The notes beneath the pieces were generated by a model, which worked only from the letters and a program-made list of their open reading frames with translations, was not told the DNA's origin and ran no database searches. Made by a program: the position numbers and the translations under genes. From Squalus acanthias (lineage: Eukaryota): a stretch of 64,000 nucleotides of DNA. Positions 964 through 64,000 of this stretch are shown here, one piece after another (positions within the stretch are counted from its first letter, which is position 1; each line of letters begins with the position of its first letter). Where the stretch lies: positions 68,512,001 to 68,576,000 of the forward strand of contig CM059432.1 in NCBI GenBank assembly GCA_030390025.1, written 5' to 3'.

Positions 964-1843
964 GCCTTTCCTAGATGTTGACCACTCTGCCTCCATTCTG
1001 ACTCTGAGCTAGGTTGTGGGTTATAAAAAGGGAAAATAAATTCCTCTGTGCAATATATGTATCCCACAGACAAAAGGATGTAACCAGTTTTTCACTGAAG
1101 TATTAAATCAGAGAGTCCTTTTGGACTGTAGACACAAGTTTACTGAGTTCAATGACACAAACTTGCATATTATGTATTATAAGTGTCCCTTGCTATAACT
1201 GGCCACAGAGTGGCAGGTGCTGTCACTAGATGCACGTGGAAAATTCTTTTCGTTCCCAGGTACTTTCATCCCTCAGTTAAAACCTTTTAAAGCAAATGGA
1301 GAGACAACCTTCAGCTCCCATCTGTGTGGGTTGGATTTAAGCCCAGTACTAAGAGGCAGGAAAGGGCAGTGTTAGTAACAAAGATGTACCACCCATTGCT
1401 CCTTCTATCATTCTTATTTGGCACTGCTGTTAGATAGGAATCGTAAAGCAAAAGCGATTTATGCCAAAACATTAAATACTGTTTGAAAACACACTTATTT
1501 TAAATTAAAATTATGCCGTTTAGTTGCACAATGCAGGAGCCATGGTTTCAAATTTTGCAGTTGAAACTTAAATGGTGAAGAATTCCTCTTCCATCATTGT
1601 TAAGGTACTCAAAGGAATGGTGAATCTGTTTTAATGAGTGAAATCTTTGTAACTCACCTGTGACGTCTTTCTCGCACTCTGAGTAAGATCAGCATTCCAT
1701 GGATCCCTATTGTGCATCTTCTATATAGAATAATATAAATAAAAGGCAAAAAACAGAAAGTGCTGGAAATCTGAAACAAGACAGAAAATGCTGGAAATAC
1801 TCAGTAGGTGAGTATGCATCTGTGGAGAGAACAGAACAAGTTA

Positions 1844-2840
1844 TACCAGCCTCCACATTCAACGGATCATCCTCCGCCACCTCCAACGTGATCCCACCAC
1901 CAAACACATCTTCCCCTCACCTCCCCTTTCAGCATTCCAAAGGGACCACTCCCTCCGCGACACCCTGGTCCACTCCTCTATCACCCCCAACACCCCTTCC
2001 CCTTCGCCCGGCACCTTCCCTGTGCAAGCACAGGAGATGCAACACATGCCCTTATACCTCCCCACTTCCCACTGTCCAGGGCCCCAAACACCCCTTCCAG
2101 GTGAAACAGCGATTTACTTGTACTTCTTGCAATTTAGTACACTGTATTCGCTGCTCACGATGTGATCTCCTCTACATTGGGGAGACCAAACGCAGATTGG
2201 GTGATCGCTTTGCGGAACACCTCTGTTCAGTCCGTAAGGGGGACCCCGAGCTTCCGGTCGCCTGTCACTTTAATTCTCCGCTCCACACCCACTCTGACCT
2301 CTCTGTCCTTGGCCTCTTACATTGTTCCACTGAAGCTCAACGTAAGCTCAAGGAACAGCACCTCATCTTTCGATTAGGCACTTTACAACCTTCTGGACTC
2401 AACATAGAGTTCAACAATTTCAGATCATAACCTCGGCCCCTATCATATATATATTTTTTTTCCCCACACTTTTTTTTTGTTTGTGTTTTCTTTTCTTCTC
2501 TCCCACATGGCAGCTGTCTTTCATTCTGCCAGCGCAATTTACACTTCATCTGGAGCCATCCTTTGTATCTTAACCTGTCCCATTACCATCTCCTTTTGCC
2601 TTGAATATCTCTTAATGTCTCTTAACCTCTCCTGCCTTCTATCCTATCACAGACCTTCCCTTTTGTTCTTTCATCCCCTCCCCCCTTTCCCAGCTCCTAC
2701 ACTTGCTTAAAAATCTGTTCCATTTCCTGCTTTTATCCAGTTCTGACGAAACGTCATCAACCTGAAACGTTAACTCTGTTTCTCTCTTCACAGATGCTGC
2801 CTGACCTGCTGAGTATATCCAGCATTTTCTGTTTTTATTT
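1844..2840 (+). mobile_element. Penelope-like retroelement, 3' fragment with GIY-YIG endonuclease and 3' UTR
   Basis: ORF 1822-2430 contains CNTC...FTCTSCNLVHCIRCSRCDLLYIGETKRRLGDRFAEH...HFN...GLNIEF, the typical Penelope GIY-YIG C-terminus. Flanked by AAGTTA at 1838-1843 and 2841-2846. Confidence 0.9.
2739..2775 (+). ncRNA. Degenerate minimal type I hammerhead ribozyme motif in the Penelope 3' UTR
   Basis: AGTT-CTGACGA-a-acgtc atc aacct-GAAA-CG-TT-AACT. Core boxes are intact, stem I pairs AGTT/AACT, and palindromic ACGT replaces helix III. Stem II has mismatches. Confidence 0.55.
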
Positions 2841-3239
2841 AAGTTAATATTTTAGATGTAACCCCCTTCATCAGAATGGGAAAAAAATTACATATGATCA
2901 GTATTTAAAAGGAACAGAACAAAATGAAGGGGGGAGGAAAAACATGCACCTGTAAGAGAGGAAATAACTTGTAAAGTGCTTGAAAGGAAAACACGGGATG
3001 GTTAAATGACTGCAGTAATATTAGCATGGGATGATAGGAAGAAGCATAATAATAAAAAATATAGAGACACAGACAAATGTTGAAAGAGGAATTGGGGTTG
3101 AGGTCACTGGTACCGCAGGAGGATGATTCCATCCCGGATATCTTGACCAGAAAGGGGCTGTCTGGGTTGCATCCTTCCTTCTGCTTCCTCCTCTTCTGTT
3201 TCTTCCTCTTCTGTGTCTTCCTCTTCCCTCTGCGAACGG

Positions 3240-3382
3240 ATGCTGCAAATCTGAAATAAAGGCATAAAATGCTGGAAATACTCAGCAAGCCAGGCAGCAT
3301 CTCAACCTGAGATGTGAACTCTGTTTCTCTCTCGACAGATGCTGTCTGACCGGCTGAGTAGTTATAGCATTTTCTGTCTTCT
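3240..3382. repeat. Inverted pair of Penelope 3'-tail fragments
   Basis: AAAATGCTGGAAATACTCAGC...GGCAGCATCT is followed by AGATGCTGTCTGACCGGCTGAGT...AGCATTTTCTG, the same tail in the opposite orientation. Confidence 0.6.
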
Positions 3383-30895: not shown

Positions 30896-31871
30896 TAAAG
30901 GTTACTGAATTACGCCTCTCTGCTGTCCATTTCATTCAGCCTGATTAGCCTTTCTTGCAAACCAATGTTTCATAACACCACTGTGATCACCAGCTGGTTT
31001 CTACTCATCACTGAGGTTTTGATCCATTAAGCTTAGGGCAGGGTCTGCAATAGTCTTGTCACATCATATGGCTTGGGTTTGTGGACTTCCTATGTTAAAT
31101 TAATGCTAAATCCACGCAGATTCCATTTCTGGAGAGCTTACTGCTTTCTTAATCACAGTCTTCTGTCACCTTTCCATGACTTCTAATTCACCAGCCATGA
31201 AACAGGAAGTTAGGTACTGTGCCACTTGTTCACAAGCTCCATTTCATAGAGTGATCGAATAGTACAGCACAGAGGGAGATCATTCGGCCCATCGAGCCTG
31301 CGCCGGCTCTTTCGAAGGGCAATCCAGTTCGTCCCACTCCCCTGCTCTCTCCCCATATTCCTGCAATTTTTTCTCCTTCAAGTATTTATTCAATTCCCCT
31401 TTGAAGGCTGTTATTGAATCTGTATCCACCACCCTATCAGGCAGTGCATTCCAAATCCTAACCACTCATTGCATAAAAAAGTTTTTCCTCATGTCACCTC
31501 TGGTTCTTTTGCCAATCACCTTAAATCTGTGCCCTCTGGTTATCGACCCTTCAGCCATTGGAAACTGTTTCACTTTATTTACTCTATCTAAACCCTTCAT
31601 GATTTTAAACACCTCTATCAAATCTCCTCTTAGCCTTCTCTGTTCCAAGGAGAACAACCTCAGCTTTCTAGTCTATCCAAGTAACTGTAATCCCGCATCC
31701 CTGGAACCATTCTAGTAAATCTTTTCAGTACCCTCTCCAAAGCCTTCATGTCCTTCCTAAAGTGTGGTGCCCAAAATTGGACACAATACTCCGGCTGGGG
31801 CCGAACCAGTGTTTTATATAGGTTTAGCATAACTTCCTGGCTTTTGTACTCTCTGCCTCTATTTATAAAGC

Positions 31872-32001
31872 GGGTTCGTGATTTTTTTTTTTTATAGTCC
31901 AACAGTTTTATTTGAAATCACAAGCTTTCGGAGCTATCGCTCCTTCCTCAGGTGAAGTAAATTGGATACAGAATCGCCTATAACCTGGTGTTGTGCGACC
32001 T
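31872..32001. mobile_element. 130-bp Penelope-derived mini-insert
   Basis: Flanked by a 15-bp duplication CTCTATTTATAAAGC (31857-31871, 32002-32016); shares sequence with 37631-37844. Confidence 0.8.
31918..31955 (-). ncRNA. Minimal type I hammerhead ribozyme motif, core intact
   Basis: The reverse complement reads TCAC-CTGAGGA-A-GGAGC-GATA-GCTCC-GAAA-GC-TT-GTGA: stem I TCAC/GTGA, 5-bp stem II, and palindromic AGCT replacing helix III. Confidence 0.75.
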
Positions 32002-32533
32002 CTCTATTTATAAAGCCCAGGATCCCATATGTTTTATTAACTGCTTTGTTAACCTGTCCTGCCACCTTCAAAGATTTGTGCACAAGCACCTCCTCCACCG
32101 CCCCCCAACCCCCCCCCCCCCCCCCCCCCGCCACCCCACCCCCACGCCCAGGTCTCTCTGTTCTTGCATCCCTTTTAAAATTGTATCATTTAGTGTGTAT
32201 GGTCTCTCCTCATTCTTCCTACCAACATGTATCACCTCACACTTCTCCTGTGTTGAATTTCAACTGGCATGTGTCTGCCCATTCCACCAGCCTGTCTATG
32301 TCTTCTTGAAGTCTATTACTATCTTCCTCACTGTTTACTACACTTACAAGTTTTGTGTCATCTGCAAATTTCAAAATTGTGCCACTGTACCCCCAATTCC
32401 AAGTCATTAATGTTTATCAAAAACAGCAGTGGTACCTGGTACTGAACCTTGGGGAACGTCACTGTATACCTCCCCATCTGAAAAACAGCCATTCACCACA
32501 ACTCTGTTTTCTATCCTTTAGCCAAATCTGTAT

Positions 32534-36390: not shown

Positions 36391-37630
36391 AGGACCACCG
36401 AGTTGCATTGAATAAATCCCCCTGCATGCATAAATTGTGCCCCCTGCACCTAACAAAGGGTCATCGACCTGAAATGGTAACTCTGTTTCTCTCTCTACAG
36501 ATGCTGCCTGATCTGCTGAGTATGTCCAGCATTTTCTGTTTTTATTTCTTATTGGTGCATTGTGATGTGCTCTTTTATGATTATGGAATGGGGACAAAGT
36601 TACACAGTAGGCAAATTTACAAGAAGTTGAGCATCGTGCCTAAACCATGTATAAATGCATCTGGTGTTGCTTGTGGATAATAGGTGAAAAAATACTTCTT
36701 TGTTTATTTTTACTTATTTTCCATGGCTGCAGTCAATAAAAAAAAAAAATTTAAATGGAGAGATAAACATACATATGCACCCTGTTCTCACCAGTTGTGC
36801 TATGCTAATGTCGAGGCTTACAGTTTTGCAATACATGCACAACTAAAAGATAAATATGGTATAGAAATGTAGTTCCATCACAGTAGTCATAGCTTCATAT
36901 TTCTATAGTATTTGGCTGTATTTCATTGGACATTCCTTTCAGTTAAATATATCAAATTATATTCTATTACTTACAATTGACAACTGGTTTCAAGAGGAAT
37001 TGCTGCAAGCAAAGCAAATAGCATGCATCTATTTAATCTGGAATAAACTGGATATGGTTTGATTAAAAAAAAATCAAAATTGAGAGTAAAAGGAATCATC
37101 AATAAAGGCACTGTACAAAATTATAACTGAAGACATGTTATAAAACTGCAGTCTTGTAATTGCTTTAAAAGAAATTGCTGTCTCAGTCCCATGTGGGTAT
37201 CAGATAGTGAAAAGAACCATCAATATTGGTGGCTTGTATGTTCTAACAGATATCTAATAACCTCTAAACAAACAATAGATACAAAAACAAATACCCATAA
37301 CTTCAATGCGTGGCACTGTACTCCAATGACTGGATGTCATTTACAATTTTACTTTCCTAATATCACAGCTTAGCAACATTTCAAGTAACAAACAGATATA
37401 TGTTTGTAAATTCAGAAAGAATTTTCTGCTTTTCTCTCCAGTTTTTCCTGTTCAGCCTGATCACTATATATCGGAATCAAACCACCATAGTATGTCTAAG
37501 GTTAGTATTACATAGGAGAAATGTATCGAAAAATAGTACCTGTAAATTTCAATACTGAATGGTACAAAAAAGAAAGGAATCATAATAAAAATTTAATATT
37601 TTTTTGTACACCTTGTTACCTTTAAAGTAG

Positions 37631-37844
37631 CCATGATGCGGAGATGCCGGTGTTGGGCTGGAGTGGACAAAAGTGAGAAGTCGCACAACACCAGGTTATA
37701 GTCCAACAGCTTTATTTGAAATCACAAGCTTTCAGAGCGCTGCTCCTTCGTCTGGTGAAGTGACCTGACGAAGGAGCAGCGCTCCGAAAGCTTGTGATTT
37801 CAAATAAAGCTGTTGGACTATAACCTGGTGTTGTGCGACTTCTC
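37631..37844. mobile_element. 214-bp Penelope-derived fold-back insert
   Basis: 13-bp TSD ACCTTTAAAGTAG (37618-37630, 37845-37857). Inverted arms 37673-37756 and 37763-37846 with two mismatches and a 6-nt loop. Confidence 0.9.
37761..37796 (+). ncRNA. Minimal type I hammerhead ribozyme motif
   Basis: TGAC-CTGACGA-A-GGAGC-AGC-GCTCC-GAAA-GC-TT-GTGA, with one mismatch in stem I. The mirror copy on the - strand has a CTGA to CAGA core mutation. Confidence 0.7.
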
Positions 37845-38165
37845 ACCTTTAAAGTAGTAACACATAAAAAAATACAGATTTAACAGATTACATTAGTGAC
37901 ATTTCTTCTATTCACAGGATTTATTTCTTCTAAATATGAATTGATGTATTAATAACAAATGCTGAAGCAACATCAATGTAAAGTAACTCATTAGTATATA
38001 TTGTGGTGGTGGGGGGCTTGTAGAGAATACAAAAATATCAACATATGATAAATAGTCCATGTAAACAGGAGAAAATGGCAGATAATCTGAAAAATATTTC
38101 CATTTTTCTTGACATCTAGAAATGTCATGTATATAATCTAATTAGCTGACACAGCTGAAGATAAT

Positions 38166-38921
38166 GGCCCGTATTTTCCGATGCCTACGGGTGTGTACGG
38201 GCTGTGTACCCACCCGTAGGGACAACGGAAATGCCGGTTTCAGGCACGCGAAGCGCATGCGCTGAAAACCGGCATTTCCGATCTGTCAAGAATGCTTTTG
38301 ACAGATCCTCCGCCTGCCCTGGAGAAGGGCCTCTGCGGGCAGAGAGTTCCGCTTTCTGGAGACCCTCCGCCCACTGAAAACCCTTAGAAATCTTACGCCT
38401 GGTAAAAGCGTAAGGCCTGCTTTTACCAGCATAAGAGTTGAAAAAAGTTTAAAAAAAAAAAATTTCACTCATTTATAATTTTAAAATACTTTTAAAAAAG
38501 GTAAGTTTATTTTTAGCCCCGTAAAAAACTTTAATTATTTTTTTCAAAAAATAAAATTTTTGTTTAAAATATTTAATTTAATGTAATTTTAACTCATTTT
38601 AAAAACGTGATGGTTTTTTAAAAATTTATTTAATGTTTTAGTGTCTTTTTGGGGTGCTCTCCATTCATATATTTGACAGGTCTATCTGTCAAAAATATGA
38701 AGGGAGATTCCCTTCTCCTATTGGCTGGCCTGGCCCACGCGATCCCAGGGACGCTTGCGGCTGCATGCGCCTCTGGGATACGTGGGCCCTGCACATTTCG
38801 ACTGTGGAGAGGCCCAGGAGCGGAAGTGTCCGGACCTCGGGGACCCTCAGGTAAGTTCGTAGATTTTTTTCCGATAGGAGGCATCCGCACGCAGGAAGCC
38901 TCCTATCGGAAATTACGGGCC
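38166..38921. mobile_element. Harbinger-type MITE with AT-rich centre
   Basis: TIR GGCCCGTATTTTCCGAT versus rc GGCCCGTAATTTCCGAT (16/17); TSD AAT on both sides. Confidence 0.9.
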
Positions 38922-45576: not shown

Positions 45577-46138
45577 TTAAGAAAATCTAGCCATTATGAG
45601 GCCATCCCAGGCCTCCCGGGCAGCAATGTGCGCCGTTGCTGGTGCCATCTCCATCTCAGGTTCCTCCTCCTCCGAAGAGGCTGTGCGCTCCGCGTCTTGC
45701 TCCTCCTGCAGCTCCAATCCTCGTTGCTGCGCTATGTTGTGAAGCGCGCAGCATATGATGATCATTCTCGAGACCCCAGTTGGTGCGTACTGAAGGGCTC
45801 CTCCAGATCTGTCAAGGCATCTGAAGCGGATCTTCAGCATGCTGATTGCTTGCTTTATGACACATCTGGTGGACATGTGGCTTTCATTATAGCGCTCCTC
45901 GGCCTCATTGCTTGGCCTCCTCAAGGGTGTCATCAGCCACTTCTTCAGTGGATAGCCCTTGTCTCCAAACAGCCAGCCAGTACGTCTCTGGCACACACAT
46001 GCATGATCATCTTTTTATGGTTGCAGACGAGCTGTACATTGAGGGAGTGGAAGCCCTTCCGGTTCACAAACAGTCCTGGGTGATGTGGGGTGCCTTGATG
46101 GCCATATGTGTGCAGTCGATGATGCCCTGCACCTGAGG
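45577..46138 (-). pseudogene. Harbinger (HARBI1-like) DDE transposase remnant
   Basis: [43 protein letters not shown]...LMTP...[26 protein letters not shown]...CCALHN. The N-terminus and the PGSxHD segment are missing, and the expected catalytic Glu reads Lys. Confidence 0.9.
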
Positions 46139-53350: not shown

Positions 53351-53689
53351 AACTTGTTGGCGGGGGGATAGCATGGTGAGAACAGTGGGCAGGGGGGAAG
53401 AACGTGATCCAGGTCTAAAGGAGGGGGATGAGAGCTAGACGTGACCCAAATGGGAAGATGGATCACATTCTCCTGCCCTTTGTTAGGCCTGGATCACGTT
53501 CTTCCACTCCCACCCACCTTACACCTGCACCACGTTCTCCCTCTCCTACTCCCCGCCAGCAGTTTAAGAAGGCAGCTCACTACCACCCTCTCACAGGCAA
53601 CTAGGGATGGGCAATATGAGCAAAAATGGGAGGATATTCTGTGTTGGTCCTTCAACATGCATAACATTACATTTATGTGTTATTTGCTG

Positions 53690-54575: not shown

Positions 54576-54662
54576 TCTTACTGTTAGGAATGAAGATGAT
54601 GAACGAGCAAGAAGAATGTCTCAGGAAGCTAGAGGAGAAAGCACGCCAAACTGTGAAGAAAG
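54576..54662 (+). CDS. rgs20: RGS20 next coding exon (87 nt, phase 2 to phase 2)
   Basis: Acceptor TTTACTACCTTGCAG|T, donor AG|GTACTT. Joined to 6122 it gives CSCS-C-LTVRNEDDERARRMSQEARGESTPNCEE(S/R), matching RGS20 CSCSCLTVRNQEDQR...PTWEES. Confidence 0.92.
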
Positions 54663-57564: not shown

Positions 57565-60500
57565 TAGGTGGGAGGGGCTAGGAGTGAGCAGGTGTTACTG
57601 GTTGCCTGATTGCTGCAGGGAGTTGGAGTGAGCTTGTAAAAAGTTGGTGGTGGTTTTTTTTCAGGTTTTAGGTCCTTTTTGGCCCATAAACAGCAGCCAG
57701 ATGGCTGCTGAGGGGTCCGGAGTGCCGGGCCCCTCAGAGGACAGTGCTCCCAAGATGAATTTAATCAGGGGAGAAACTGTGGTTGGAAGGGAAAGAAAAA
57801 GGCCCAAAGATTTGGGCCGGGACCCCAGGAGGTTTGGAAAAGAAAACACGGTGGTGGTTCAGTGCGAGGATAAGGAGATATGAGCTTGGGATATTATCCA
57901 GGCAGTGCATGAGGACTGCGGCGAGGGAAGCTACTTTGCCTGCCGACCAAAGCCGAATGTTGGGTTCGAGGTGACGGTCAGTGGCCGAGAGGAGGTGGAA
58001 AGACTTTTACTCAGTTTGAAGGCTGGCGATAAGTTCTTGGAGGTATCTCTGCTATATTCGGAAGAGGTGGTGGTCTCATTCTTAAACTTGCCAGTTTATA
58101 TTGAGGACGATGTGCTAATCAAAAAGTTGGAGTCGTGGGACATTAAAATTTGCTCAGCAATAAAGAGGAGATGCTATCCAGGAACACGGGTAGCAGATGG
58201 AACCCATTACGTAAAGGTGCGGTTCCCAGAGGGGGTGAAGTCATTACCGTACAGCATGAAATTCGAGCCAATGGAAGGAGTGCAGAACTTCCGAGTACTG
58301 CATGATAACCAAGTGAAGGTTTGTTATTATTGTCTTGGACACGACCATCTTGTAAGAAGCTGTCAGACTTGTACTGTTATAATTGCGGCGAGTCTGGACA
58401 CATCGCTTGGAGCTGCAAGGCGGCGAGCTGTGAGGTGTGTCACAAAGGCCCCACCCGCTGTGAGTGTGAGGCAGAAGGAAGCTCGATGAGTGACGAGGAG
58501 ATGGGAGAAGGAGCAGGAGGTGTGAGTGGAACGGCCGGAGGAGCGGAGCAGTCGGAGGACACAGCTGGTAAATTGAAGGAGAAAAGAGCGCAGGAAGAGG
58601 CAGAAAATTGCGGAGCAGAGAACAGGATGGAGATGGTGGAAAACACACCAAGTACAGTGGAAAAGAACAAAGACAGCAGAGGGCAGCATAGGTCAAGGGC
58701 AGACTCGAGCCATAATATGGTTCAGCTCTCCCTAAAGAATCTGGTGTCCGCGGGGGGAGAGAAGGTGGGTGCGTGGTAAATGTAAGTACTCCAAAGAAAG
58801 ATGGAGAGTCGGACATCTCGGTGAGCAGGAGGGGGCAAGACAAGGTGCAAGAGGCAGGAGCCTTAAAGGGGCAGCAGGACTGGAGCGGTGAGACAAAGAC
58901 GCCAGAAGGAGCAATATAAGTGCACCATTGTCCCAGAGAGAGAAGGATCAGGGAGCAAGGGTCAGCGGTGGATATGAGGTCGAAGGGAGCAGCACTGTTG
59001 GAGAAACTGCGATAGCAGGAAGACTCTCTATGGGAGATGATATATCTGACGGGGAGCAGGTACAGAAGAGCTTGAGAGTGAGGAATTAGAGGGGGACAGA
59101 GACATGGAAGTGGGGGGTGGGGTGGCATCATGTGGAAAGGGAAAGGTTAGTGAGGGGCAGAAGGAGGGAGAAAGGGCAGCTCCTTGGCCCAAACTTAATA
59201 CAAGGAAGAGGCTGAAACAGCAGGGAAGGTTCAAACAGGAGGTGAAAAAGAGTCGGAGGCTGCAGGAGAAAGCATAGAAGATAGGAGCAGGAGTAGGCCA
59301 TTCGGCCCCTCGAGCCTGCTCCGCCATTCGATGAGATCATGGCTGATCATCCAAACTCAGTACCCTTTACCTGCCTTCTCCCCATATCCCTTGATACCTT
59401 TAGCTTTAAGAAATATATCTAACTCATTCTTGAATATATTTAATGACTTGGCCTCAACTACCTTCTGCGGTAGAGAATTCCACAGGTTCACCACTCTCTG
59501 GGTGAAGAAATTCTTCCTCATTTCTGTCCTAAATGGCTTACCCCTTATCCTTAGATTATGACCCCTGGTTCTGGACTCTCCGACCATCGTGAACATTCTT
59601 CCTGCATCTAGTTTGTCCAGACCTGTCAGAATTTTATATGTTTCGATGAGATCCCCTCTCATTCTTCTATACTCCAGCGAGTATAAGCCCAATCGACCCA
59701 ATCTCTCCTCATATGTCATTCCTGCCATCCCAGGTATCAGCCTTGTGAATCTTCGCTGAACTCCTTCCATGGCAAGAACATCCTTCCTCAGATAAGGCGA
59801 CCAAAACTGCACACAGTACTCAAGGTGTGGTCTCACCAAGGCCCTGTACAACTGCAGCAGGACATCCCTGTTCCTATACTCAAACCCTTTCGCTATGAAG
59901 GCCAACATACCATTTGCCTTCTTCACCGCCTGCTGCACCTGCATGCTTACTTTCAGCGACTGGTGCACAAGGACACCCAGGTCTCGTTGCACTTCCCCTT
60001 CTCCCAATCTATTGCCATTCAGATAATAATCTGCCTTTCTGTTTTTGACACCAAAGTGGATAACCTCGCACTTATCCATGTTATGTTGCATCTGCCACGC
60101 TTCTGCCCACTCACCCAACCTGTCCAAATCATCCTGGAGTTTCTCGGTATCCTCCTCGCAGCACACACTCCCACCCAGCTTTGTGTCATCTGCAAACTTG
60201 GAGATATTACATTTAGTTCCCTTATCTAGATCATTAATGTATATTGTGAGCAGCAGCTGGCCGAAAAGTTGGGAAGGAGCATGAGAGGAGGGAAGGGCCA
60301 GAGATTAAATGATGGGGAGATTATCAGGCATACTTCCCTTCTTCGGAACCATGATTACATTGGTCTCGATTAATGTGAACGGACTGAGGGGTGAGAAGAA
60401 ATTGCAGCAGTTGTTGCAGGGTTTTAAAGGCATAGACTTGTGTCTGCAAGAAACCTTTTGGGATGAGGATATCCTAGAAAGAGTTCGGAAGGTTTGGAAG

Positions 60501-63500
60501 GGAGAGGTGTTTGCAAGTTGTGCAAACAATAACCGTAGAGGGGTGGCTGTTTTGGTGAGTCCGTCCATAAAAGAGAACGTTGCCTTGGTGGACAAGGACA
60601 CTGAGGAGAGATTTTTACGGCTAAGGGTAAAAATTGAGGAATTTAATTGCGATCTCTTTAATATCTATGCACCGAACGACCATTGCCAGCGTCGCGAGTT
60701 TTTTCGGGGGTTATTTACTGAAGTGGCAGAGGTGGAAAATCCTTGTATAGTGGGGGATTTTAATGTATTTTTATCTCTGATAGACATTTTAGCCCAGATG
60801 ACCTTTAAGGATGATAACTCCAGAGGGATGATTGTAAAAATGATGGCAAATTTAAATTTGAGAGACTTATGGAGGGACCGGAACCCCATAAAAAGGGAGT
60901 TCTCCAGAACAGGTTGGGTGGGTGATATTTTAAAACCGAGCCGAATAGATTTTGTGTTAATGCGGGAAGGGTTAAGTTCTGAGGTGATGGAGATTTATTA
61001 TAAAAAAGTATTTTTTAGTGACCACTCGGCTTTGGTTCTTAGAATTAGGAACAGCAGAGTTAAGATCGGTTCAGGGGTGTGGATTTTAAACAATCAATAC
61101 CTGAAAGAAATTGCTTATAAAGAAGGGATTTTAAATATAATAAAGAATGCTCAGAAGAAACCTTTGTTCTTGAAAGAAAGAAGAGTTTGGTGGGACAATT
61201 TCAAATATGAGGTAAAAGTTTTTTCGGTACGTTATGGGAAAAAGAGAGCGGCAGCTAACCGGCGTCGAGAAGAGAATATAAACAAAAGGTTTACGGATGT
61301 CTGTAAAGCAGTTGACGGAGGGGATAAGGGAGCTGAGACTAAGTTCCGGGTGTTAAAGGAAGAGTGGGAATTATTGCAAGCTGAAAATGCAAGGGGGCCA
61401 TTCTCCGTGCAAAGGCTAGAGATGCATTGGAGGGCAAAAGATGCACTAGATATTTTCTAGAGCAAGAGAAGCTGCGACAGAGATTATCATTAATTGGAGA
61501 GTTGAAGGTTGGGGAGAAGATCATTCATGAAAGTGGGGAGATTTTAGAGGTGGCTAGCAGCTTTTATCAAGAGTTATATACAAAAGAAGACATTTCCAAT
61601 TTGGTGATGGAGAAGGTTAGTGCTTTTGTTGAAGAGGGTTTAAAGGAGGATGAGAGAAGCATGTGTGACAAAGAAGTAGGATTAGCGGAAATAAAAGTAG
61701 CAATAAGTGGAATGAAGGGGGGGGAAAGCCCAGGGTCCGATGGACTAAGTGCAGAATTTTATAAAGAATTTTTCGAGATTTTAAGTCCATTGCTCTTAGA
61801 AGTTTTTAAGGAAATTAAAATTGAGGGAAGCCTGGCCCCATCTATGAGGAGAAGTGTCATAAGCTTAGCTTATAAAAATAAAGGGGATAGAAGGGATCTG
61901 AAGAATTGGAGGCCCATCACATTATTAAATGTGGATTATAAGATCTTGGCGAGGGTTATGGCAAATCGTATGAAGGAGGTGTTGCTGCAGATAGTTTTGC
62001 CCTTTCAGTCCTATGGAGTCATAGGCCGGGACATCGCAGACTCTATGGTCTCAATCCGGGATGCGATAGAGCTCATGGAAGAGAGTGGGAGGGAGGCTTA
62101 TGTATTAAAGATAGGTCAAGAGAAAGCCTTTGATAGGGTCTCTCGTGAGTTTTTATTGAAGGTTTTGGAAGCATTTGGTTTCGGGGAAAATTTCATTGAG
62201 TGGATAAGGATTTTTTATTCAAATATATTTAGCTGTGTTAAATGTAATGGTTTTTATCCAAGTATTTTCCAATACAGAGGTCAGTGAGACAGGGTTGTCC
62301 CCTGTCCCCATTGTTGTACACATTGGTAGCAGAACCATTAGGTTACATGATGCGAAAGAAACGAGGTGTAGTTGGGATTGCGGTTCCCAGTTACGGGCTG
62401 GTGTCGGTGATACACCAATAGGCAGATGACACAACCTTAACATTGAGAAATGGGGAGTCAGTGAGGAAAGCTATGGACGTAGTGGAGGAGTATTGTAGAG
62501 CTTCAGGAGCCAGAGTGAATTATAGTAAGTCCCAATGCCTGGTTGCAGGAAGGGGTAGGGGGGAATGGTTGGAGGAAAGTCCCTTTAAGGTGGTGGAGGT
62601 TTTGGAAGTTTATGGAGTGCAAGAAAGACCGGGGTGAAGTGGATCAATTAAATTGGGAACCGAAGGTTATGAAAATTAAAAAGATTTTGGGAAGAAGGTG
62701 GTTGAAAGTGCAAGGAAGAGCGACAGTGGTGTCCGCTCTCCTGCTATCTAAGCTATGGTATTTATTGACGGTGGAGGATATTCCTGAGTGGCTGGAAAAG
62801 TCCATCTGAGAGGCTTGTGTGAGGTTTTTATGGGAAGGGAAACCAGCCTAGGTGGCTTACAATACCATAATTGGACGGAGAAATCAGGGAGGACTCAATT
62901 TCCCAGATATTGATTTGAAGAAAAAATCCTTTAGAATCAAATGGGTGAAGAGATTTCTTCAGAAGTCAAATACAAGTTTTTGGAAGAGTTGTTTTGAGCA
63001 TTTTTTAAAACTAAGTGGGATAGGAGGGCAGGGGATATTGTATATGGAATACAATAATATGTTTTTGAAATCGATTAAACTTCTCCCTAGGTTTTATAAC
63101 GGGGTTGTAGAGACTTGGGCCCAATTTTTAAAAAGTGAGCAGTTTATGCCCAAGGGTGCTGAGGAATTTTTAGAACAGCCCTTCTTTTTGAACAGGTGGG
63201 TCAACATCGAAGGAGAGGTATTATTTAATCAAGCTTTTATAAAAGCTGGTATTATATGTGTGAAAGATGTATTATACAAGGTAATTCCAGGTTGGTTGCC
63301 GGAAGCGATAGTGAGGGACATGGTGTGGAAGGAGGATCCGGAGGTAGAGGAAAAAGCAATAGGGATCATGTATGAGAAGATTGTGAGGGCAATGCCACAG
63401 GATTGGATGGAAGAAATAAATGCAGAAATCTCCAAAGGAAGTAAAATGCGTCCCGCTTTTCCAAGCTTTCTGCTGGAGAAAGGGGGAGAGTTGGTCCAAT

Positions 63501-63642
63501 TTGACAACTGTAATACTCGAGATTTCTATGAGGTATTTAGAGAATGGAGAGTCAAGACACCTGCTGGTCAGGAGTTTTGGCAGAGTATATACCCACAGCT
63601 GGACTTCAACAGGATTTGGAAGGGAGTGTGGGCAAATTTTAA
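57565..63642 (+). mobile_element. Tx1-like (L1 group) retrotransposon with 5' UTR, zinc-knuckle ORF1 and APE-RT ORF2; disrupted, 3' end not in window
   Basis: ORF1 from 57701 (LPVYIEDDVLIKKL, GTRVADGT, LPYSMKF, CYYCLGHDHLVRSC, CYNCGESGHIAWSC). ORF2 from 60351 (MITLVSINVNGLR, LQET, GDFN, SRIDF, FSDH, SPGSDGL, NWRPITLLNVDYKILA, QEKAFDRV, RQGCPLSP). Several stops and frameshifts. Confidence 0.9.
59273..60249 (-). mobile_element. Young 5'-truncated CR1 inserted between Tx1 ORF1 and ORF2
   Basis: Open ORF2 C-terminus 59357-60166; near-identical by eye to 32548-33525. Confidence 0.95.
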
Positions 63643-64000
63643 GGGCTGGATTTTGAATGACCCATGGAGTCGGGTTTGGAGGCGTGTGGGGGGTTAAATT
63701 TGCGGGGTCGGGGTTTCCGACCCTATCCCGACTCCATCCCACCTCCACGCAATTTTGACATCATCAGTCGCGGGGTTCCCGACTCCAAGAGGCGGGAGAG
63801 GCCATTAAAGCCCTTAACAAGCTCTAAATTGGCTCTGTAATGCCATTTTGAAACGCTGTAGCTAGTTTAACCCTCTTTTGACGTGAAGCACGCCTGGTGT
63901 GAAACACTCCAGTGAAACCTGGCGGGAGCACAAGTGGATAGCTGACTATCGGCTGCAAGTCCACTATTACAACGGAGATGTGATGGAGGTGGTAGTAGTA
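63643..64000. mobile_element. Left end of another Harbinger-type element inserted in Tx1 ORF2
   Basis: TAA|GGGCTGGATTTT, the same terminal motif as 16540/19136; Tx1 coding similarity stops here. Confidence 0.7.

What the first reader, a model, noticed from the sequence alone, without database searches (positions are those of the whole stretch)
37618..37857. Fold-back mini-element: 84-bp-arm palindrome holding two back-to-back hammerhead motifs
Seen: a clean 13-bp TSD around 214 bp, of which ~174 bp is a near-perfect hairpin (2 mismatches, loop GAAGTG). Each arm has the hammerhead motif; the + copy (sense to rgs20 pre-mRNA) keeps CUGACGA and GAAA, while the - copy has a core mutation. No ORF. 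Known: inverted pseudo-LTRs are typical of Penelope integration. Inference: in the transcript the long hairpin would compete with ribozyme folding, masking cleavage and offering a Dicer/ADAR substrate. Together with 31872-32001 this is my best candidate for an undescribed small mobile RNA system here.
Basis: partly seen in the sequence, partly recalled or inferred. Interest (0 to 1): 0.75.

Follow-up and report, generated by a model that had tools for sequence, protein, structure and literature searches.

The report
Fold-back Penelope stub in shark intron
This 214-base hairpin in an intron of a cartilaginous-fish gene is a real, lineage-specific insertion of two back-to-back end pieces of a very abundant repeat that is likely a Penelope-like jumping gene; the layout is already described for that class and the ribozyme motif is predicted to be locked inside the hairpin, so it is most likely an ordinary dead-end copy.

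Summary
In detail: 13-bp TSD, 214-bp insert, 84-bp arms with 2 mismatches and a 6-nt loop, in an RGS20 intron with + as the sense strand. Two related organisms have the empty site with one TSD copy, so it is a true, young insertion.

It is two 5'-truncated ends of a very abundant repeat joined head to head, one with a 38-44-nt extra tail. That is the published insertion layout of Penelope-like elements (PLEs), including opposite-strand minimal hammerheads. The autonomous partner was not found.

But the two hammerheads lie on opposite strands, and minimal ones are reported to need same-strand dimers.

Inversion points differ among copies and from 31872-32001, so a distinct mobile RNA system is not supported. 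One oddity remains: inversion points cluster at the hammerhead's 5' edge, and some junction forms look multi-copy.

The scan reported this stub type before, in this genome and others.

The parts
37618..37630 (.). Left target-site duplication (13 bp), AT-rich site
   Evidence: Exact match to 37845-37857. Flanks 75-77% AT against 55% for the window. Single copy at the empty site in organisms B and C (records 17 and 24).
37631..37672 (-). One-sided 'tail': extra 3' sequence of the repeat, present only on the inverted copy (42 nt beyond the paired arm; 38-44 depending on how the junction microhomology is counted)
   Evidence: Alignment. Part of the high-copy family: summed depth 4e5-2.5e6 against 6.55 in the flank (X1). 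Six listed contigs with 73 or more unrelated letters begin matching at 37633-37641 (records 12, 19, 21, 25, 26, 27).
37673..37763 (-). Inverted 5'-truncated pLTR-like copy with a mutated minimal hammerhead (U4A at 37753; C11.1U at 37734). Its 5' end includes the so-called loop and stops at an initiator-like TCACTTC
   Evidence: At 37753, about 98% of family depth has the other letter, so the change is private to this copy. The loop letters match the family's normal upstream sequence (loose-end consensus ending CACTTC at 37763; also the 31872 copy).
37757..37762 (.). 6-nt loop: the extra 5' bases of the inverted copy, not a separate spacer
   Evidence: The two copies overlap by one base at 37763.
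37763..37846 (+). Direct 5'-truncated pLTR-like copy without tail; the last 2 bases (up to 5 of 6) are shared with the TSD as microhomology
   Evidence: Another contig (X6 record 23) leaves the repeat at 37845.
37761..37797 (+). Minimal type I hammerhead motif: core CUGACGA 37765-37771, bulged A, helix II 5 bp, GAAA 37786-37789, palindromic AGCU, predicted cut after 37793, helix I damaged by the truncation
   Evidence: features as defined in PMC4209133. Position 17 (37793) is C in 24-29% of family depth in organism A. Activity not tested.
37845..37857 (.). Right target-site duplication (13 bp)

Best explanation
The insert is two short, 5'-truncated end pieces of a very abundant hammerhead-bearing repeat, joined head to head between 13-bp target duplications; it is likely a one-off, dead-end integration product of an endonuclease-bearing Penelope-like retroelement rather than a self-propagating unit. 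Inferred mechanism: the element's protein cut both strands of an AT-rich site 13 nt apart. Each 3' end primed a cDNA, one from the tail-bearing start site (left) and one from the tail-less start site about 40 nt upstream in the RNA (right). Both cDNAs stopped at the 5' edge of the hammerhead, 7 nt apart, and were joined with 1 nt of overlap. In RGS20 pre-mRNA the antisense arm is made first and is predicted to pair with the only sense hammerhead, so the intron is predicted not to be cut. Shown: anatomy, TSD, empty site in relatives, abundance, variable junctions, intronic sense position. Computed: masking. Inferred: PLE parentage, two-ended priming (about 0.55 against 0.3 for single-cDNA fold-back), inactivity.
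For: Empty orthologous site with one TSD copy in organisms B and C. Arms at 0.9-4.3 million summed depth against 6.55 in flanks (X1). 146 joint rows, 15 of 15 shown being different inversion points. 24 of 32 listed pieces cross a nearby fold-back junction, with 0-5 gaps and none identical, including 7 in organism B, which lacks this locus. Published layout: inverted 5'-truncated copy and 30-40-bp one-sided tail (PMC8557442); head-to-head palindromic junctions, 31-bp tail, 8-10-bp TSDs (PMC3846280); dual minimal hammerheads on opposite strands tied to truncated PLEs (PMC4209133). A purified PLE protein cuts and extends both strands at AT-rich DNA and starts at two RNA sites that delimit the tail; hammerhead cleavage was not needed (PMC11167929). 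Very short PLE insertions (median 128 bp) arise de novo in Chlamydomonas (PMC9977147). In-window control: a second hammerhead family shows the same tail + inverted + direct layout at 1740-2840, around a Penelope-type endonuclease remnant, and at 3238-3380.
Against: No RT/GIY-YIG ORF was linked to this family's terminus, so PLE parentage rests on architecture. Some junction contigs are 10-20 times deeper than single-copy flanks (100.9 vs 6.55; 285.7 vs 13.8; 570.8 vs 32.2), and 5 of 24 keep this copy's spacing; copying of whole palindromes could give this. The near-identical arms fit fold-back copying equally well, and PMC3846280 itself favours self-priming.
Confidence: 0.85

Rival explanations
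1. Same dead-end PLE stub, but made by one cDNA: primed at the left nick from the tail-bearing site, it ran to the hammerhead's 5' edge, folded back, copied itself for about 82 nt and was joined to the right target end through 2-6 nt of microhomology. This competes with two-ended priming inside the best explanation.
For: Arms 82 of 84 complementary. The change at 37753 is private and the one at 37734 is a CpG-type transition, so the arms were probably identical at birth. Both arms share the G/C letter at 37809/37710, where 57% of X1 depth at 37809 has A. Microhomology at the right end. Self-priming is proposed in PMC3846280.
Against: Only one base pair closes the 6-nt loop, a poor primer. The right end falls at a tail-less end point that other copies also use (X6 record 23; tail-less ends of the second family within about 6 nt of each other), which fold-back copying does not predict without an extra cut. 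In the second family the two arms of one insertion are only 80-85% alike.
Confidence: 0.3
2. A non-autonomous palindromic mini-element that is transcribed and re-inserted as a unit by the PLE protein.
For: Inversion points cluster within about 5 nt of this one in 24 of 32 listed pieces, and some junction forms are 10-20 times deeper than single-copy DNA. One RNA-guess run has a centre-crossing contig (X19 record 14, depth 4.35; may be DNA). Non-autonomous PLE families exist (PMC8557442).
Against: Spacing at the junction varies (0-5 gaps, up to 8) and none equals this one. Many other junction positions exist. 31872-32001 shares neither ends nor junction. A recurrent stop point in a family this abundant would give repeated junction forms without unit copying (inference).
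Confidence: 0.1
3. A regulatory hairpin of RGS20 (miRNA or endo-siRNA precursor, or ADAR substrate) kept by selection.
For: Very stable hairpin in the sense pre-mRNA. Weak Rfam matches to miRNA-precursor models.
Against: Absent from two relatives whose flanks differ by only about 3%. Rfam scores 47.8 and 36.3 bits are far below the gathering scores of 93 and 80 and are expected for any long hairpin. It lies 17 kb from the nearest exon found. Incidental editing or dicing is possible but would not be a function.
Confidence: 0.04
4. Assembly artefact (fold-back chimera).
For: No listed contig spans the whole hairpin.
Against: Exact TSD. Left junction in two samples from two studies and right junction in one. 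Clean empty site in relatives. Two internal mismatches between the arms.
Confidence: 0.01

Closest known systems
Insertion units of endonuclease-bearing Penelope-like elements with inverted pLTR and tail (Pen2a_Av and kin, PMC3846280; general scheme in PMC8557442; passages read, plus the Discussion of PMC3846280)
   Same: Head-to-head inverted 5'-truncated pLTR, palindromic junction, tail on one end only, TSD, AT-rich target.
   Different: Both halves are truncated to under 135 nt, so no ORF lies between them. TSD is 13 bp against 8-10 bp in the rotifer examples; tail is 38-44 nt against 30-40. The autonomous parent was not identified here.
Minimal type I hammerheads of metazoan PLEs (PMC4209133; parts 1-2 of 4 read)
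   Same: Conserved core, extra base between positions 9 and 10.1, G10.1-C11.1, palindromic 15.2-16.2, 4-bp helix I in the family; pairs on opposite strands and solo copies ascribed to truncated PLEs.
   Different: The opposite-strand pairs reported there are about 100-700 bp apart; here the cores are about 10 bp apart. Helix II is 5 bp (7-8 bp in the Schistosoma families). One copy has a core mutation, the other a damaged helix I.
PAc, Poseidon-type PLE of Anolis carolinensis (PMC11167929; parts 1-2 of 4 read)
   Same: Two reverse-transcription start sites that delimit the tail, both target strands cut and extended, AT-rich target: this accounts for a tailed and a tail-less end facing outwards.
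   Different: Joining of two cDNAs was not shown there. PAc initiation was at sites without homology to the target, whereas the right end here shows 2-6 nt of microhomology.
Non-LTR retrozymes (bioRxiv 10.64898/2026.07.22.740005, part 1 of 5 and 10 passages read; PMC7229834 seen only in a search listing)
   Same: Non-coding, type I hammerhead, PLE-derived.
   Different: Retrozymes are head-to-tail tandem units with two or more same-strand hammerheads. This element is head to head, has one hammerhead per strand and carries a TSD.

Membership tests
EN+ Penelope-like element insertion | Terminal repeat (pLTR) carrying a minimal type I hammerhead | tested here: met
   against the features in PMC4209133.
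EN+ Penelope-like element insertion | Inverted 5'-truncated copy directly adjacent, head to head | tested here: met
   layout.
EN+ Penelope-like element insertion | 30-40-bp tail at one end only | tested here: met
   38-44 nt on the inverted copy only; other copies end at 37633-37641 and at 37845.
EN+ Penelope-like element insertion | Target-site duplication at an AT-rich site, with an empty site | tested here: met
EN+ Penelope-like element insertion | An autonomous copy with RT + GIY-YIG ORF bounded by this same terminus | tested here: inconclusive
   No genome held. Pattern scans gave 0, 2 unrelated 22-nt and 0 hits. Protein search with a frame of the arm gave none. The only PLE ORF remnant in the window belongs to another family.
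Minimal type I hammerhead ribozyme | Intact core C3-A9 and G12-A15.1, helix II with G10.1-C11.1 | tested here: met
   Met by the + copy. Not met by the - copy (U4A, G-U).
Minimal type I hammerhead ribozyme | Helix I of 4-5 bp | tested here: inconclusive
   + copy: 2 bp, a G.G mismatch, then up to 6 substitute pairs from the loop; probability 0.23 in the isolated arm. - copy: 4 bp intact.
Minimal type I hammerhead ribozyme | Self-cleavage (as a dimer) | not testable with these tools
   A single minimal motif showed no cleavage and dimers low cleavage in PMC4209133. No same-strand partner within the element.
Non-LTR retrozyme | Head-to-tail tandem units with two or more hammerheads on one strand | tested here: not met
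   Copies are head to head on opposite strands; definition.
Self-amplifying non-autonomous palindromic element | Many independent loci share the same junction and both ends | tested here: inconclusive
   Junctions vary and none listed is identical, but some are multi-copy by depth. No genome for a census.
MITE (definition recalled, not from a call) | Inverted repeats at both termini, short fixed TSD | tested here: not met
   The left end is a 42-nt unpaired tail, the arms abut in the centre, and TSDs are 13 and 15 bp in the two family copies.
Rfam miRNA precursor families (mir-1597, MIR396) | Score at or above the gathering threshold | tested here: not met
   47.8 of 93 and 36.3 of 80 bits.

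The most novel reading that the evidence does not exclude
The fold-back junctions that cluster at the hammerhead's 5' edge mark a class of ~200-nt palindromic units that the Penelope protein re-mobilises whole. Sharks would then carry a self-spreading, ribozyme-masked hairpin parasite whose many intronic copies supply double-stranded RNA against the parent element.
Probability: 0.08. Interest if true: 0.6.

Novelty: new member of a known kind. Interest (0 to 1): 0.13.

Why it matters
As a single locus it matters little: it is a young, lineage-specific stub in a 48-kb intron. Its use is as a clean record of PLE integration, a step still unresolved in the papers read. It has both reverse-transcription end points, an exact TSD and an empty site in relatives. 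A genome-wide census of such stubs could separate two-ended priming from fold-back copying, and could show why copies stop at the hammerhead's 5' edge (RNA start, ribozyme cut or enzyme stall). If whole palindromes did spread as units, that would be a new kind of non-autonomous PLE.

Tried and rejected
Whole-genome census: no genome is held.

Search for the autonomous partner:
- Pattern scans: viral contigs 0, prokaryote genomes 0, metagenomes 2 loci that match only the 22-nt pattern.
- Protein search with a 43-residue antisense frame of the arm: 1 candidate, none significant.
- tblastn of 4 of the 11 PLE proteins against the window hit only 1845-2463.

Rfam found no hammerhead family among 8 matches at E up to 1; the miRNA matches are far below threshold and were rejected.

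Expression: no RNA holder listed. The one RNA-guess run laid (X19) cannot show strand or level. Small RNA and editing are untested.

Other dead ends:
- Pfam gave nothing for the 233-aa frame and a sub-threshold GIY-YIG match for its last 143 aa (E 0.002).
- The Atlas gave nothing for the RGS20 exon.
- One search was a self-comparison of no value.
- No convincing TSD for the three second-family insertions (best 6-7 bp).
- The apparent pile-up of joints at 37763 was not used as evidence of a hot spot, because the reference arm starts there.
- A cap-derived G at 37762 cannot be told from templated sequence of the inverted copy.

Literature: searches for a shark description of this family or of unit-copied Penelope palindromes found no such paper (1 plant review; 0; 1 listed; general PLE and hammerhead papers). 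Repeat databases and most subscription journals are not covered. The Lunse et al. paper on dimer cleavage is not held and was seen only as cited in PMC6765202. No supplements were read; those of PMC4209133 and of the retrozyme preprint may list cartilaginous-fish hammerhead families.

Full report
1. The observation. The 13-mers at 37618-37630 and 37845-37857 are identical and enclose 214 bp; 4 of 20000 random intervals of that length had such a repeat at both ends. The arms are 37673-37756 and 37763-37846, with mismatches at 37753/37766 and 37734/37785 and a 6-nt loop. Two bases of the right arm lie in the TSD. The region folds at -179.7 kcal/mol, z -22.1, better than all 200 shuffles. All six frames of the insert hold stops. 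An exon at 5971-6123 matches cartilaginous-fish RGS20 at 96-100%, and a later exon lies at 54577-54660, both on +.

2. A real, young insertion. In organisms B and C one contig each runs 37200-37599, then 19 letters, then 37845-38199 (X6 record 17, X7 record 24). The window has 18 letters before the left TSD, so this is the empty site with one TSD copy. The flanks differ from the window by about 3% (13 of 400 and 11 of 355 letters in X6). In organism A the left junction is in two samples from two studies and the right junction in one; these contigs reach 17-20 letters into the insert, and X1 may be the window's own source. No listed contig spans the whole hairpin. Whether the insertion is fixed in A is unknown.

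3. Anatomy. Read in hammerhead sense, the left arm (- strand) and right arm (+ strand) are the same repeat end, joined at their 5'-truncated ends with both 3' ends facing out. The loop is the extra 5' sequence of the left copy: family contigs continue upstream of 37763 with the same letters (loose ends), as does the 31872 copy. The left copy carries 38-44 more bases at its 3' end, the tail; the right copy stops without it and shares 2 bases (5 of 6 if extended) with the target. Six listed contigs with unrelated flanks start matching at 37633-37641, and one leaves at 37845, so both end points recur elsewhere. Summed depth over the arms is 0.9-4.3 million against 6.55 in the flanks (X1). The tool warns this is no copy number, but the family is plainly very abundant in all four runs.

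4. The hammerheads. The + copy has the minimal type I features of PMC4209133: core, extra base before helix II, G10.1-C11.1 and palindromic AGCU. Truncation removed its native helix I strand, leaving 2 bp, a G.G mismatch and substitute pairs from the loop. The - copy has a 4-bp helix I but U4A and a G-U closing pair; the letter at 37753 is private, since about 98% of family depth has the other. Enforcing helix II costs 0.9 kcal/mol in the isolated arm and 23.5 in the whole insert, and 51-55 with helix I. Masking is thus well supported as a prediction. It probably masks little: a single minimal motif did not cleave in vitro and dimers cleaved weakly (also review passages), and the two motifs here are on opposite strands. 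Rfam found no hammerhead family, only sub-threshold miRNA-model matches.

5. One-off or family? One search gave 146 joint rows; the 15 shown are 15 different left-to-right junctions (sides of 21-29 letters, likeness 85, so they come from other copies of the repeat). laid 91 bases around the centre. Of 32 pieces shown (of 3591), 24 cross a fold-back junction near this one: 8 of 8 in X1, 8 of 8 in X5, 7 of 8 in X6, 1 of 8 in X19. They have 0-5 gaps and none equals this copy; 5 keep its spacing but differ at 3-6 letters. None has 31 letters on both sides, so they miss the tool's bridging rule; X5 record 13 meets it, with 8 gaps. Organism B has such junctions but lacks this locus. Against my reading, some junction contigs are 10-20 times deeper than the flanks (100.9, 285.7, 570.8 against 6.55, 13.8, 32.2). 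I read this as a recurrent stop point in a huge family, but limited copying of whole palindromes is not excluded. The element at 31872-32001 has a 15-bp TSD, other ends and another inversion point, so the two are not copies of one mini-element.

6. Known layout. PMC8557442 describes an inverted 5'-truncated copy next to the pLTR and a 30-40-bp tail at one end (12 passages). PMC3846280 describes head-to-head palindromic junctions, a 31-bp tail, 8-10-bp TSDs and solo pLTRs (passages and Discussion). PMC4209133 notes dual minimal hammerheads on opposite strands and ascribes most motifs to truncated PLEs. PMC9977147 reports de novo PLE insertions of median 128 bp (passages). In this window a second hammerhead family shows the same tail + inverted + direct layout at 1740-2840, around an ORF remnant whose relatives are shark and ray proteins and one 828-aa protein with an RT domain, and again at 3238-3380. 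I could not link the family in question to an ORF: no genome is held, and searches found nothing. Its PLE membership rests on four architectural features met and one inconclusive.

7. Mechanism. PMC11167929 (parts 1-2 of 4) showed a PLE protein cutting and extending both strands at AT-rich DNA, starting at two RNA sites that delimit the tail, without needing hammerhead cleavage. The target here is 75-77% AT, and the two ends are a tailed and a tail-less end. I therefore favour two cDNAs, one from each nick 13 nt apart, both stopping at the hammerhead's 5' edge and joined with 1 nt of overlap (about 0.55). Fold-back copying of one cDNA, as proposed in PMC3846280, fits the near-identical arms but has one base pair to prime from and does not predict the right end point (about 0.3). 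Unit copying gets about 0.1. All of this is inference. Why copies stop at this point is open. The left copy ends at an initiator-like motif, which fits an RNA start site, a lead from e1-8153599 that I could test only that far. One deep joint starts at the predicted cut site.

8. Earlier notes of the scan. A word search returned 9 findings in at least 4 genomes, 8 shown, all read as PLE stubs; more in this genome are. My reading was set before these look-ups. They are unchecked AI notes and add no independent support. One (e1-8036563) states a link to a protein-coding PLE, which I could not test.

9. Verdict. Observation confirmed; interpretation partly supported. A new member of a known kind: a dead-end fold-back stub of a likely Penelope-like element. 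I found no paper on this shark family in the searches named under Tried and rejected, which do not cover repeat databases. Interest 0.13. The boldest reading left, a unit-copied palindromic parasite, has probability about 0.08.

Noticed in passing
window 31857-32016: Second copy of the same family (helix II loop variant, intact core on -) under a 15-bp TSD. The long minus-strand piece ends where the short plus-strand piece begins (6-nt overlap), with a 20-nt lead holding a T run. This resembles LINE twin priming (recalled) rather than a full fold-back.
   Followed up: partly
window 1740-2840: Second PLE family: tail + inverted pLTR piece, 5'-truncated ORF remnant with a GIY-YIG-like end (58-68% identical to shark and ray proteins), then a direct pLTR with a hammerhead motif at 2743. 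No clear TSD.
   Followed up: partly
window 3238-3380 and 36445-36547: Two more pieces of the second family: a fold-back stub with tail, and a solo direct piece.
   Followed up: partly
joint 37759 to 37794 in run X5: A junction form at depth 938 (flank 13.8) in which the direct copy starts at the predicted hammerhead cut. It has 4 letters of helix I microhomology, so it could reflect in-vivo cleavage or self-priming through helix I; the shorter side is only 23 letters.
   Followed up: no
window 37757-37763 (- strand): The inverted copy's 5' end lies at an initiator-like TCACTTC; PMC3846280 notes a similar motif in a rotifer pLTR. Possible RNA start site.
   Followed up: partly
window 38161-38430: Start of another high-copy repeat with internal inverted repeats (38184-38220, 38226-38280, 38399-38429) and sharp ends at 38161-38165 in many contigs; possibly a non-autonomous DNA transposon.
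   Followed up: no
window 53386-53516: GC-rich hairpin-like stretch with weak Rfam miRNA-model matches, below threshold.
   Followed up: no
window 54577-54660: Short RGS20 exon present in some shark isoforms (P0014, P0021) and skipped in others (P0012, P0016).
   Followed up: no
window 45577-46014 and 57884-63697: ORF remnants that look like a Harbinger-type transposase and a Tx1-like LINE (labels recalled, not tested) among many CR1-like fragments.
   Followed up: no
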